Shown piece by piece: positions 1 to 10,254 of a DNA stretch of 13,839 nucleotides. The number at the start of each line of letters is the position of its first letter. The first letter of the stretch is position 1. Both the position numbers and the translations under genes were made by a program. The notes under the pieces are model-generated. The model worked only from the letters and a program-made list of their open reading frames with translations, was not told where the DNA came from and ran no database searches. Source of the stretch: Octopus sinensis (taxonomy: Eukaryota); NCBI RefSeq assembly GCF_006345805.1, contig NW_021826065.1, positions 1 through 13,839 of the forward strand, read 5' to 3'.

Positions 1-735
1 GGTAAGTAGATTGCTTACCAACCACAAGGTTCCTGGTTCAGTCCCACTGCGTGGCACCTTGGTCAAATGTCTTCCACTATAGCCTCTTCTACTATAGCAT
101 CGGGCCGACCAAAGTCTTGTGAGTGGATTTGGTAGACGGAAACTGAAAGAAACCCGGCGTATATATGTATAATAAATATATATATATATAATATATATTA
201 TATATATATAATATATATATTATATTATATATATATATATACAAAATGAGAAAATGGAGAAACATACCTAAATCAATCATCAACCATCAGATAATACCCA
301 CTCAATACTTTATTAAACCATTACACAACAGCAATGACATTATACATAATATATTACAAATATAACTAGACATAGAAATAGAAATAGAAAATACAATTAC
401 ATTGTAGCTGACAGCTGTTTCGGCCGTGAAGACAGGTATGTCCCATTTAACCTATTAGCCATATATATATATATATCTGTGTGTGTGTGTGTGTGTGTGT
501 GCGTGTGTGTGTGCGTGTATGTTTGTGTGTCTATGTTTGTCCCCATAGCATTGCTTGACAACCGATGCTGGTGTGTTTACGTCCCCGTCACTTAGCGGTT
601 CGGCAAAAGAGACTGATAGAATATATACTAAGCTTACAAAGAATAAGTCCTGGGGTCGATTTGCTCGACTAAAGCCGGTGCTCCAGCATGGCCACAGTCA
701 AATGACTGAAACAAGTAAAAGAGTAAAAGAGTAAA
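1..735 (+). mobile_element. tRNA-derived SINE, family A; 5' end cut by window edge; interrupted by an insertion at about 242-462
   Basis: 1-170 (B-box-like GGTTCAGTCCC, GGCACCTTGGTCAAATGTCTT, GTGAGTGGATTTGGTAGACGGAAACTGAAAGAA) and 479-735 (AGCATTGCTTGACAACCGATGCTGG...GAAACAAGTAAAAGAGTAAAAGAGT) match the head and tail of the intact copy at 9811-10215. Short local duplication of CTTC(C/T)ACTATAGC at about 71-98. Confidence 0.9.
242..462 (-). mobile_element. Penelope-like terminal-repeat fragment with truncated hammerhead motif, nested in the SINE's internal (TA)n
   Basis: Minus strand reads ATGGC...GCC-GAAAC-AGCT-GTC-AGCTAC, i.e. stem II ends, GAAA, palindromic stem III and a GUC triplet. The CUGANGA half is lost at the (TA)n junction. 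Flanked by (TA)n on both sides. Confidence 0.55.
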
Positions 736-1591: not shown

Positions 1592-1803
1592 ATGGCTGGG
1601 TCGGCTACATCCGAGGATGTTACAAACCTGGGATGCTACACGGAATAAGCGACAAGAATGGATGCCGGCATTGGACGTCTCCCACCAACAACATGACGGC
1701 TCTCTACTGCTTCTGCGACACAGACTACTGCAACAGTGCTCCCGCTGCTTATTCATCCTCCATGCTAGTGTCGCTACTCATCGCTGTTGGAAGTCTTTTG
1801 TAA
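1592..1803 (+). CDS. Terminal coding exon of a GPI-anchored Ly6/uPAR (three-finger; quiver/sleepless-like) protein
   Basis: Polypyrimidine tract and acceptor TTTTCCAG (AG 1590-1591), phase-1 junction. Frame from 1594 reads GWVGYIRGCYKPGMLHGISDKNGCRHWTSPTNNMTALYCFCDTDYCNSAPAAYSSSMLVSLLIAVGSLL* with TAA at 1801-1803. It has the LU-domain IRGC and C-x-C-x-x-D-x-CN motifs, an NMT sequon, small residues after CN (omega site) and a hydrophobic tail. Confidence 0.9.
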
Positions 1804-3054: not shown

Positions 3055-3167
3055 CAATGTGAGTGCGTGTGCTTCAACACCGTTAGGTATATCTGTTTCC
3101 AAAACGTTTGAGCAGGAAACGGTGACTTGTTTTTATTTCTCCTGTCGACAAGTGGTCCACTGCTGGT

Positions 3168-3379
3168 TTGGACCTTTGACGTCACGTGATACTTAACTAG
3201 CAAAGCAGAAACATTGGACCACACGAATGGCTTCCGGTTGGAAAATAATTCGTTTGAATTACAGCTACAGCCCATCGCCTGGGCTTCCACTCATTTTCCG
3301 TTAACCCACGTTTATTACGAAATGAATTCGCTGACGCTGACATAGCGTTTGTCAAAACTGCGACGGCGTGACTATAAAA
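3168..3379. promoter_or_regulatory. Candidate cis-regulatory cluster in non-microsatellite, CpG-retaining sequence
   Basis: Overlapping CRE TGACGTCA (3177-3184) and E-box CACGTG (3183-3188), adjacent TGGACCTTTG nuclear-receptor-like site, ATTGG (3213-3217), ETS-like CTTCCGG (3231-3237) and TATAAAA (3373-3379). Motif matches only. Confidence 0.3.
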
Positions 3380-3767
3380 TCTGAACCACACACGTACACA
3401 TATTCACATATACAGAAACGTATAAACATGCAGACACACACAGATACACACGCACATACACGTAGACAAACAGACAGACACACACATATATTCATACTCT
3501 TAATTATTAAACAACGGCTCAGATTTTAACACAAGAAATTACAGGGACCAAGTTGGTTCGAAACAAGCAATGCATAACTCGGGAGTGTAACCCCAAATTA
3601 CGTGTGAGAATTGATGCAGGCCGATCAAAGAAGAGCCCTTAATTTCTGACCCGAACATGCTTGTATGTATACATACATACATACTTACATACAATACCGA
3701 TCAGGGTAAATTAGTGCTTAACACCACGATTGTGGATGAATATTCTCTAATGTTGGGTTTACAAAAC

Positions 3768-3866
3768 TACCATTGGTTTCATGCTCACAATTCTCTCGAC
3801 GAATAGCAACGTCACAAGTGGAAGGCTTGATAAATGCTTAGAATTGTCTGCATGAAACCAGTGGTA
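3768..3866. repeat. 27-bp inverted repeat with degenerate hammerhead-like right arm
   Basis: TACCATTGGTTTCATGC-TC-ACAATTCT (3768-3794) versus AGAATTGT-CT-GCATGAAACCAGTGGTA (3840-3866). Confidence 0.7.
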
Positions 3867-3972
3867 AACTCGTTAATTCATAAATAAAGTTTACACACAT
3901 ACATATGCATGCATATGATATATATGTATGTAGATATATAATCAAAATAAGCAGCAGGATATCAAGAAGTGA

Positions 3973-4058
3973 TGCAGTACGACCGTCTCAAGCTGGTCCA
4001 TTTAATTGAACAATGAAATCATTACATCAATTTAATTGAAGTGCCATCCTCAGCTGCA
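3973..4058 (-). ncRNA. Type I hammerhead ribozyme-like motif (GAAA mutated to GAGA)
   Basis: Minus strand: TGCAG-CTGAGGA-TGGC...long stem II...CTT-GAGAC-GGTC-GTA-CTGCA; stem I TGCAG/CTGCA is a perfect 5-bp match. Confidence 0.55.
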
Positions 4059-4345
4059 CAAATAAATAAACAGAGTTTTTACCAGTTGGACACATTAATA
4101 TAATTTCCCTCAAATATCTTAGCAGAGCAAGAAGATGGAAGAAATTCATGTTGTCGCTATTTGTAGCTGAAAATAGACTTCCCTTTCAAGACTCGGATGA
4201 TCCTTATTGAAGTCATAGTGTTGTAAAGGATTGTAATTCATTTCTAATTCATTCATCACTTTATCTAACTACTGAATCTAAGACTAGCAGAATGTGTCTG
4301 TTTTGAATAAAGGACAAGAGTGAGTTGACACACCATGGCTAGGTA

Positions 4346-4688
4346 AGGGTAAAGACCCCCTTCGGTCATGAATGACCATGGGATTGCACCGAGAAAGTTA
4401 CCCTCCTAGACACAAGTCCGGGCAAGGTTGTTTATGGAAGGCCAGCAGTCGCCCATGCATACCAGCCTCCCCTCTCCATGCCACCAGTGTTATCTAAGGG
4501 AAAGGCAAAGGGGCCGATACAGCTTGGCACCAGTGACGTCGCAACTCATTTCTACAGCTGAGTGAACTGGAGCAACGTGAAATAAAGTGCCTTGCTCGAG
4601 AACACAACACGCAGCCCGGTCCGGGATTCGAGCTCACAACCTCACGATCGTAAGCTCGACGCTCTAACCACTGAGCCATGCGCCTTCA
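4346..4688 (-). mobile_element. Full-length tRNA-derived SINE, family B, with 12-bp target-site duplication
   Basis: Minus-strand head has A box TGGCTCAGTGG and B-box-like GCTCGAATCCC, then CTCGAGCAAGGCACTT...CACTCAGCTGTAGAAATGAG. Exact TSD CATGGCTAGGTA at 4334-4345 and 4689-4700. Confidence 0.92.
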
Positions 4689-5123
4689 CATGGCTAGGTA
4701 TGGTCGAAAATATTGTCATATGTGTCCCTTTTCCTCAGGGAGGAAAGAAGACATTAGGAGTAGTCAATAGAAAGTAACTGTCTATGAAAAGAGACTAGGT
4801 AGGGGAATACTTTAAATCATGATGTTAATTACCAGTTAAGGGAGCAGGCGCCAAGAAACCTAAGATGTTAATACAGAGGAAATTTTACTTAGGGGCACTA
4901 TGGGTGATTGCTTATCAACAATATTGTTATATTGTATAAAAAATAAAATTTAAGATTTTCAGAAATGATATCATAACCAAAACAGGTAAAATGTGTGTAT
5001 ATAACAATTATAAACATCAGAAAGGAAAGATTACACATAATCAGTTTAATCATCATTTATGTACTTAATTAATTAGTTATTAGGTGATTTCTATAAAGAC
5101 TGCTGAGGGCATTTATCTATTTG

Positions 5124-5209
5124 TGCACCTGAAGATGGCATTGCATTTAAATTGAAGTAATGATTACGTTGTTCAATTAAATGGAGCCGCTTGAAACGGT
5201 CGTACTGCA
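5124..5209 (+). ncRNA. Type I hammerhead ribozyme-like motif
   Basis: TGCAC-CTGAAGA(5129-5135)-TGGC...CATTTAAATTGAA/TTCAATTAAATG stem...GCCG-CTT-GAAAC(5193-5197)-GGTC-GTA(5202-5204)-CTGCA. Core nucleotides are intact, but stem I closes with a C-C mismatch and there are 3 extra nt before GAAA. Confidence 0.6.
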
Positions 5210-5322
5210 TCACTACTTGATTCCCTGTTGCTTATTTTGATATTAAAAACCTTACTTCGAGCTGTACGGATAATACCGGACTGATTTGGTGCTTCAACTA
5301 GTACCTAAATTCAACTGAATCT

Positions 5323-5366
<44 letters not shown>

Positions 5367-9810: not shown

Positions 9811-10213
9811 GGCGTAGGAGGGCTGTGTGGTAAGTAGCTTGCTAACCAACCACATGGTTCTGGGTTCAGTCCCACTGCGTGGCATCTTGGGCAAGTGTCT
9901 TCTGCTATAGCCCCGGGCAGACCAATGCCTTGTGAGTGGATTTGGTAGACGGAAACTGAAAGAAGCCTGTCGTATATATGTATGTATATATGTATGTGTG
10001 TTTGTTTGTGTGTCTGTGTTTTTCCCCTTAGCATTGCTTGACAACCGATGCTGGTGTGTTTACGTCCCCTTTACTTAGCGGTTCGGCAAAAGAGACCGAT
10101 AGAATAAGTACTGGGCTTACAAAGAATAAGTCCCGGGGTCGATTTACTCGACTAAAGGCGGTGCTCCAGCATGGCCGCAGTCAAATGTCTGAAACAAGTA
10201 AAAGAGTAAAAGA

Positions 10214-10215
<2 letters not shown>
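9811..10215 (+). mobile_element. Full-length tRNA-derived SINE, family A
   Basis: GGCGTAGGAG-GGCTGTGTGG (A box-like), GGGTTCAGTCCC (B box-like), CTTGGGCAAGTGTCTT, internal (TA)/(TG) tract, tail ending GAAACAAGTAAAAGAGTAAAAGAGT; embedded in (TA)n. Confidence 0.92.

Positions 10216-10254
<39 letters not shown>

What the first reader, a model, noticed from the sequence alone, without database searches (positions are those of the whole stretch)
3941..5241. Inverted pair of type I hammerhead ribozyme motifs bracketing about 1 kb
Seen: two about 130-bp arms in inverted orientation, each with stem I, CUGANGA, a long AT-rich stem II, GA(A/G)AC, a tiny stem III and a GUA triplet. The lesions are complementary: the left copy has a perfect stem I but GAGA, the right copy has GAAA but a stem I mismatch, so the consensus restores both. 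Established: Penelope-like elements carry type I hammerheads in pseudo-LTRs and often form inverted terminal structures. Inference: this is a non-coding Penelope-derived or retrozyme-like unit whose two strands could each self-cleave. Both copies share an unusual CTT insertion before GAAA, which may be a family-specific core variant.
Basis: partly seen in the sequence, partly recalled or inferred. Interest (0 to 1): 0.75.

Follow-up and report, generated by a model that had tools for sequence, protein, structure and literature searches.

The report
Edited hammerheads of inverted Penelope copies
The two inverted arms are the hammerhead-bearing tail ends of two truncated copies of a common Penelope-type jumping gene inserted back to back, a known arrangement, and RNA across this site carries clustered A-to-G changes in one arm, likely host editing that would disable the ribozyme.

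Summary
The inverted pair is real (130 nt, 88%), but it is not a closed non-coding unit. It is one 820-nt copy (minus strand, later split by a SINE) joined head to head with a 130-nt copy plus an 83-nt tail, both 5'-truncated ends of a high-copy Penelope-like retroelement. Longer copies link the arm to a reverse transcriptase/endonuclease frame with Hydra-clade motifs. The hammerhead reading is supported by compensatory changes between subfamilies and a self-complementary stem III. The 'CTT insertion' is wrong: GCU pairs in stem II, leaving a U·U closing pair listed for 14 of 25 published Hydra families. Both window copies carry a damaging change. Four contigs from presumed RNA runs show A-to-G changes almost only in the right arm, two of them at catalytic A14 and the cleavage-site A17, and those two run uncut across the site: likely ADAR editing of the arm-arm duplex. 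Cleavage is untested. The scan noted this architecture before in other genomes. Verdict: new family of a known kind, modest interest.

The parts
3941..5115 (-). Long 5'-truncated copy of the Penelope-like (Hydra-type) element: last 820 nt of its about 1.8-kb 3' untranslated region, ending in the hammerhead arm, no tail, abutting a TA-rich microsatellite; interrupted by a SINE
   Evidence: BLASTN against other loci; 3' region length from L092; flank
3972..4059 (-). Left hammerhead motif: stem I intact, core CUGAGGA, A14G lesion at 3987, further stem II mismatches, GUA at 3980-3978
   Evidence: 96.1 bits with the model built from these families
4345..4689 (-). Very high-copy SINE inserted later into the left copy; 10-nt target duplication at 4335-4344 and 4690-4699 (orientation inferred from a tRNA-like head at the 4689 end)
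   Evidence: absent from other copies of the element; duplication printed; loose ends at 4345 and 4689 and far higher depth
5111..5115 (.). Head-to-head junction with a 5-nt overlap that fits both copies (microhomology)
   Evidence: hits end at 5115 on one side and start at 5110-5111 on the other; bridged by contigs of runs X16, X4, X1, X3 and X7
5112..5241 (+). Short 5'-truncated copy (right arm); region of clustered A-to-G changes in presumed RNA contigs (5133-5215)
5123..5210 (+). Right hammerhead motif: stem I 5123-5128/5205-5210 (C·C at the first pair), core 5129-5135, stem II 5136-5192 closed by U·U, GAAA 5193-5196, self-complementary stem III 5196-5203, predicted cut after 5204
   Evidence: 100 bits
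5242..5324 (+). Optional tail of the element, followed by (TA)n; in near full-length copies this sequence lies between the 5' hammerhead and the start codon
   Evidence: L232 and L233

Best explanation
The locus holds two 5'-truncated copies of a Hydra-clade Penelope-like retrotransposon joined head to head, each ending in the element's hammerhead motif; the copies are likely dead, and a plus-strand transcript likely folds arm on arm and is edited by ADAR rather than self-cleaving. Shown: the copy structure, the SINE, the link of the arm to a reverse transcriptase/endonuclease frame, the subfamily changes that keep the pairs, and the A-to-G clusters. Inferred: (1) the element's enzyme inserted both copies in one event into (TA)n, starting reverse transcription at two sites (arm end at 5241/3941, tail end at 5324), probably once from each nicked strand, with the two cDNAs joined through the 5-nt overlap; (2) in active source elements the hammerhead works as a dimer through the self-complementary stem III, or with protein help, and was kept by selection; (3) at this locus both motifs have decayed by about 6-7%, and the 130-bp duplex out-competes the ribozyme fold and is hyper-edited, including A14 and A17.
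For: Structure: the spacer matches other copies, with coverage falling from 29 of 29 loci at the arm to 5 of 29 near 5000-5100, as expected for 5' truncation; 29 loci picked by the spacer continue upstream to different lengths. L092 holds in one locus an inverted short copy with tail, RT motifs, the endonuclease, 1.77 kb of 3' region and the arm. Clade motifs DKT, CxCX5C, CxxC and CxH around E and N, no CCHH (against PMC8557442 section 11). 35 of 112 sampled loci have a head-to-head partner within about 1.5 kb and 152 of 184 arm ends meet a TA/CA microsatellite; the tail is on exactly one arm in 40 of 42 scorable pairs, 8 more not scorable. Ribozyme: between subfamilies pair 2.1-1.1 goes G-C to U-A, pair 10.2-11.2 is G·U, A-U or U-A, the stem III centre is GU, AU or GC (always self-complementary), and N7 is A, U or G; 90.9% of cells paired against 88.9 +/- 0.3 in shuffles, 0 of 500; 11 core substitutions against 23.7 expected in 27 copies not picked through the motif, p=0.002. 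Editing: A>G at 11 of 33 arm adenosines and 0 of 137 or 0 of 179 outside in X3 and X7, 6 of 23 against 0 of 162 in X4, 7 of 28 against 1 of 162 in X1; 5' G depleted, p=0.024; an X16 contig over 4974-5196 has no difference.
Against: No cleavage assay. Rfam finds nothing; RNAalifold does not recover the hammerhead; the hammerhead fold is 3-7 kcal/mol above the minimum for every subfamily and both arms. Pairs with a change on both sides are not above shuffles (4 against 4.3, 375 of 500), the structure was derived from these sequences, and core invariance among five subfamily majorities is not significant (1 of 12 against 41 of 122, p=0.062). Subfamily D mostly has C at core position 4 (23 of 38). 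Pfam gives GIY-YIG only at E=0.027 and no RT hit for the family's fragments, the homologue search found none, and no tree was built. No single locus with two direct hammerheads at both ends of an element was found among 9 searched. The runs are only guessed to be RNA, are contigs, have no DNA from the same animals, and some of their differences were not listed (1 of 14 in X3, 1 of 13 in X7, 4 of 11 in X4, 6 of 15 in X1). The arms share no private change, so one-template copying is not shown here.
Confidence: 0.87

Rival explanations
1. A dedicated non-autonomous unit (retrozyme-like or MITE-like) with 130-nt terminal inverted repeats that moves as a whole and self-cleaves on both strands.
For: Clean 130-nt inverted arms; motifs on both strands; animal retrozymes are proposed to derive from Penelope-like elements (10.64898/2026.07.22.740005, abstract).
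Against: Distance between paired arms varies from about 0 to 3.7 kb over 50 pairs; the spacer is the element's own 3' region; no other locus sampled has this junction; no head-to-tail monomer array at this locus; tail on one side only.
Confidence: 0.04
2. The motif is a vestigial look-alike: a structured 3' end needed for protein binding or priming, with no self-cleavage even in active elements.
For: Not the minimum-energy fold; U·U instead of G-C at 10.1-11.1; C4 in subfamily D; in a lizard Penelope element ribozyme mutants still inserted in vitro and no RNA ends were seen at the cut site (PMC11167929, section 3 part 2).
Against: Compensatory changes sit in stems I, II and the dimer helix, N7 is the varying core base, core substitutions are depleted; the same lizard motif did cleave with protein present.
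Confidence: 0.15
3. The A-to-G differences are genomic alleles, a paralogous locus or assembly noise, not editing.
For: No matched DNA; run type is a guess; 5166 G is also the family majority (51 of 62); ordinary alleles are present (4108, 4196, 4912, 5239).
Against: The contigs carry the locus-specific junction with 0-2 listed differences over the spacer; the edited set differs from run to run; 5156 is a private A of this locus (family T, G in 0 of 62) yet reads G in X1, X4, X7; changes stop at the arm borders.
Confidence: 0.1

Closest known systems
Hydra-clade Penelope-like elements (Craig et al. 2021, PMC8557442; section 11, passages, supplement parts read), e.g. Penelope-13_HM and Hydra-1_Obim
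   Same: C-terminal GIY-YIG type endonuclease without CCHH, CxCX5C linker, DKT, CxxC and CxH around E and N, (TA)n targets, 3' hammerhead; U·U closing stem II in 14 of 25 listed families; Penelope-13_HM has a 5'-truncated inverted copy with a hammerhead on each strand.
   Different: About 5 kb (estimated from pieces) against mostly under 3 kb; 1.8-kb 3' region; Asn-rich insert before the linker; stem II of 57 nt, longer than any Hydra row of File S2; RWI/RWM instead of RWK; tail about 83 nt against 30-40. Not Hydra-1_Obim, whose hammerhead and protein differ.
Minimal type I hammerheads of metazoan Penelope-like elements (Cervera and de la Pena 2014, PMC4209133; parts 1-2 of 4 read)
   Same: Located in the terminal repeat, long helix II, small palindromic helix III suited to dimers, opposite-strand pairs 100-700 bp apart already reported.
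   Different: U·U or G·U instead of the conserved G10.1-C11.1; activity untested here.
PAc Poseidon element of the green anole (PMC11167929; passages and section 3 part 2 read)
   Same: Two reverse-transcription start sites defining an optional tail, AT-rich targets, hammerhead near the start of the frame.
   Different: Other clade; here the hammerhead lies wholly upstream of the start codon (about 180 nt).
A-to-I hyper-editing of neighbouring inverted repeats (PMC5625713; passages read)
   Same: Clusters of A-to-G in a long duplex, 5' G depleted; octopus among the most edited animals; a lizard Penelope element massively edited.
   Different: Here the edits fall on ribozyme catalytic positions; my searches listed no paper whose title or abstract start addresses that.
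Animal non-LTR retrozymes (PMC7229834, search listing only; 10.64898/2026.07.22.740005, abstract only)
   Same: Type I hammerhead, Penelope link.
   Different: No short head-to-tail monomers; the motif is the end of a coding element.

Membership tests
Hydra-clade Penelope-like element | Single frame with RT and C-terminal GIY-YIG endonuclease | tested here: met
   RT motifs then linker then endonuclease in L091 and L092; all copies broken; Pfam GIY-YIG only E=0.027, below cut-off
Hydra-clade Penelope-like element | DKG motif changed to DKT | tested here: met
   ADKT in L091, L232, L233
Hydra-clade Penelope-like element | CxCX5C linker; CCHH absent; CxxC and CxH beside the catalytic E and N | tested here: met
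   CxCX5C in 14 of 34 loci, CxxC..E in 21 of 34, N..CxH in 17 of 34; one Cys only between the GIY and YIG equivalents
Hydra-clade Penelope-like element | N-terminal RWK motif | tested here: inconclusive
   RMRW at the matching place in 8 of 20 loci, followed by I or M, not K
Hydra-clade Penelope-like element | (TA)n insertion preference and a 3' hammerhead | tested here: met
   152 of 184 ends at a TA/CA microsatellite; hammerhead at the 3' end
Hydra-clade Penelope-like element | Placement in the clade by an RT tree | not tested
   Only visual likeness to the Hydra proteins printed
Neptune/Nematis Penelope-like element | CCHH motif with two Cys inside GIY-YIG, CX2-5CxxC linker | tested here: not met
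   my first label 'Neptune' was dropped
Type I hammerhead ribozyme | Core C3 U4 G5 A6 N7 G8 A9, G12 A13 A14, A15.1-U16.1, H17 | tested here: met
   Family A majority and right arm intact; 43 of 62 subfamily A copies intact; left arm fails at A14
Type I hammerhead ribozyme | Three stems supported by covariation | tested here: met
   Two compensatory pairs plus a palindrome-keeping series; few independent events; RNAalifold alone fails
Type I hammerhead ribozyme | G10.1-C11.1 pair closing stem II | tested here: not met
   U·U in A, B, B2, C; G·U or A-U in D; U·U is tabulated as canonical for Hydra elements
Type I hammerhead ribozyme | Self-cleavage after N-U-H | not testable with these tools
   Needs an in vitro assay; contigs cannot show ends
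Non-LTR retrozyme | Short non-coding monomers in head-to-tail arrays | tested here: not met
   Adjacent arms are opposite-strand in 58 of 62 pairs, same-strand in 4 (not de-duplicated); arm is attached to a coding element

The most novel reading that the evidence does not exclude
Head-to-head Penelope insertions disarm their own ribozymes: the inverted partner turns the hammerhead into a long duplex that host ADAR edits at the catalytic core, so that such insertions can sit in host transcripts (here possibly the 3' end of the quiver/sleepless-like gene 2.1 kb upstream) without cutting them, and thousands of loci in this genome offer a natural test of editing against ribozyme activity.
Probability: 0.2. 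Interest if true: 0.62.

Novelty: new member of a known kind. Interest (0 to 1): 0.37.

Why it matters
It adds a long, high-copy Hydra-clade family with natural compensatory changes that support the dimer model of Penelope hammerheads (the stem III palindrome is kept through GC, GU and AU centres). It also gives a concrete locus where likely A-to-I editing hits catalytic ribozyme positions, which makes the open question of what Penelope hammerheads do in host RNA testable with existing cephalopod-type RNA and DNA data. The architecture itself is known.

Tried and rejected
Rfam, whole window and 3930-5330: no hammerhead hit. RNAalifold on 42 copies: 5 weak pairs, not the hammerhead. Pfam, PDB and homologue searches with endonuclease and RT fragments: nothing at cut-off. 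A degenerate pattern meant to find further families was one base too long and gave background only (31 matches against 15 control), so more distant families were not sampled. The Neptune label was dropped. Sequencing runs: no RNA holder listed on record; 3060-3895 had no cover in X2, X3, X7, so a link to the quiver-like exon is neither shown nor excluded. Three contigs stop aligning at 5299 but carry further letters, so this is not read as a transcript end. No locus with both a 5' and a 3' direct hammerhead among 9 searched. No target-site duplication could be read in the TA flanks. The paper on dimeric Penelope hammerheads that I recall (Lunse et al. 2017) was not held and is not used. ARAGORN finds no tRNA in the window. 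Earlier-findings look-ups by place and by sequence returned nothing.

Full report
1. Observation. The inverted pair is at 3941-4070 and 5112-5241, 130 nt, 88% complementary. Read on the strand pointing outwards, each arm has stem I, CUGANGA, a 57-nt stem II region, GA(A/G)A, an 8-nt self-complementary stretch and GUA. The right arm has C·C at the stem I pair beside the cut site; the left arm has A14G. The family majority lacks both lesions (G at 5128 in 32 of 37 copies, A at 5195 in 36 of 37). Rfam has no match and single-arm folds are not hammerheads.

2. What the locus is. The arm is a high-copy repeat (2314 candidates, 40 scored). In 29 other loci homology extends from the left arm into the spacer, with coverage falling from 29 at the arm to 5 near 5000-5100, and 4345-4689 is missing from them. 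That insert has a 10-nt target duplication and very high depth: a later SINE (I recall it from octopus genomes; not tested). 29 loci picked with the spacer alone run on upstream for up to about 1 kb into the end of an endonuclease frame. So the window holds a long minus-strand copy (5115 to 3941, 820 nt without the SINE) and a short plus-strand copy (5112-5241) with a tail to about 5324, overlapping by 5 nt at the junction. Contigs of five runs bridge the junction, so it is no assembly artefact.

3. The element. Walking upstream gives the order 5' hammerhead, tail, start codon, RT, Asn-rich insert, linker, endonuclease, about 1.8 kb untranslated, 3' hammerhead. L092 shows RT motifs to 3' arm in one locus, with an inverted short copy with tail at its 5' side, the same design as the window; L232-L233 show the 5' hammerhead, tail and start. 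All copies seen are broken. Motifs fit the Hydra clade as defined in PMC8557442 section 11: DKT, CxCX5C, no CCHH, CxxC and CxH around E and N, (TA)n targets; RWK appears as RW(I/M). Pfam support is weak (GIY-YIG E=0.027), the homologue search was blank and I built no tree. It is not Hydra-1_Obim.

4. Insertion pattern. 35 of 112 loci have a head-to-head partner within the fetched flank and 152 of 184 ends meet a TA/CA microsatellite. Of 50 de-duplicated head-to-head pairs, 40 have the tail on exactly one arm, 2 on neither, none on both, 8 could not be scored. Inverted 5'-truncated partners and a one-sided tail are described for these elements (PMC8557442 passages; PMC3846280 passages), opposite-strand hammerhead pairs too (PMC4209133), and the tail marks two RT start sites (PMC11167929). 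Priming from both nicked strands is my inference, a reading taken from earlier scan notes; the two arms share no private change, so it is not shown here.

5. Is it a hammerhead? 186 distinct copies sort into five groups (A 62, the window's; B 38; B2 8; C 40; D 38; median distance to the majority 2-10%). These were gathered partly by motif patterns and by similarity, so they are no random sample. Between groups: pair 2.1-1.1 is G-C (A, B, B2, C) or U-A (D, 30 of 38); pair 10.2-11.2 is G·U (A), A-U (C, D) or U-A (B, 37 of 38); the centre of stem III is GU, AU (B, 33 of 38) or GC (D, 36 of 38), always keeping an 8-nt self-complementary helix, which fits dimer formation; N7 is A, U or G. On 42 of these copies 90.9% of cells pair (shuffles 88.9 +/- 0.3, 0 of 500) but the number of pairs with two-sided change is not above shuffles (375 of 500), and the structure came from these sequences. 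In 27 copies not picked through the motif the core has 11 substitutions against 23.7 expected by base (p=0.002; 11 against 22.3 without diagnostic columns, p=0.005). Against: core invariance among majorities p=0.062, C at position 4 in 23 of 38 D copies, hammerhead fold 3-7 kcal/mol above the minimum, RNAalifold blank. The 'CTT insertion' disappears in this register: GCU pairs with GGC, leaving U·U at 10.1-11.1. File S2 of PMC8557442 lists U before stem II and U before GAA in 14 of 25 Hydra families (my count), so this is a clade trait.

6. What happens at this locus. A transcript through both arms is predicted to pair them (117 pairs; duplex -168 kcal/mol), far more stable than the ribozyme fold (about -17). 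I laid 8 of 21 listed runs. Four long contigs from presumed RNA runs of four studies carry A>G on the plus strand nearly only in the right arm: X3 11 of 33 arm adenosines against 0 of 137 outside, X7 11 of 33 against 0 of 179, X4 6 of 23 against 0 of 162, X1 7 of 28 against 1 of 162; a fifth, X2, enters the arm by only 28 nt and shows one. The sites differ among runs, avoid a 5' G (1 of 16 against 7 of 17, p=0.024), and include 5195 (A14) and 5204 (A17) in X3 and X7, whose contigs extend 95 nt past the cut site. An X16 contig over 4974-5196 matches the window exactly; X15 and X19 gave no long locus-specific piece. This matches hyper-editing of inverted repeats (PMC5625713 passages). Limits: run type is a guess, no matched DNA, contigs only, some differences unlisted, 5166 may be an allele, and editing of the left arm was not seen for lack of a locus-specific contig there. 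The last exon of a quiver/sleepless-like gene ends 2.1 kb upstream on the same strand (Pfam QVR E=2.6e-5, below cut-off); whether it is the source of the transcript is open.

7. Verdict. A decayed head-to-head insertion of a previously unlisted (in the papers I read) Hydra-type Penelope family. It works like the known pLTR hammerheads and is most likely inert here, masked and edited. New member of a known kind; interest 0.37. Supplements of the bioRxiv preprint and of PMC4209133 were not seen and may list octopus motifs.

Noticed in passing
window 1592-1803 (+): Last coding exon of a quiver/sleepless-like Ly6 protein with a hydrophobic C-terminal signal; splice acceptor before 1592, stop at 1801-1803 (Pfam QVR E=2.6e-5).
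   Followed up: partly
L182-L210 (subfamily D): Oldest subfamily has C at hammerhead core position 4 in 23 of 38 copies (T in 13, explainable by CpG decay), a perfect GGCC palindrome and a nearly continuous stem II closed by G·U: a natural core variant worth assaying.
   Followed up: partly
L127-L150 (subfamily B): Younger subfamily, median 2.3% from its majority, 35 of 38 cores intact, perfect AU-centred palindrome; best natural material for a cleavage test.
   Followed up: partly
L064, L068, L079: The element's frame carries an Asn-rich microsatellite-like insert between RT thumb and linker, as described for rotifer Penelope elements.
   Followed up: no
L019/L020 (G000:C17:53326527-53330129): A 468-nt tandem array whose unit contains an inverted fragment pair of this family, giving several same-strand hammerheads in a row.
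   Followed up: no
L095:6054-7499: A separate 482-aa open RT frame with a DKG motif (another Penelope-like family, Pfam RVT_1 E=4e-4) next to a copy of this family.
   Followed up: no
window 1-170, 489-746, 994-1099, 9829-10229: Dispersed copies of other short repeats (84-90% alike), probably SINEs.
   Followed up: no
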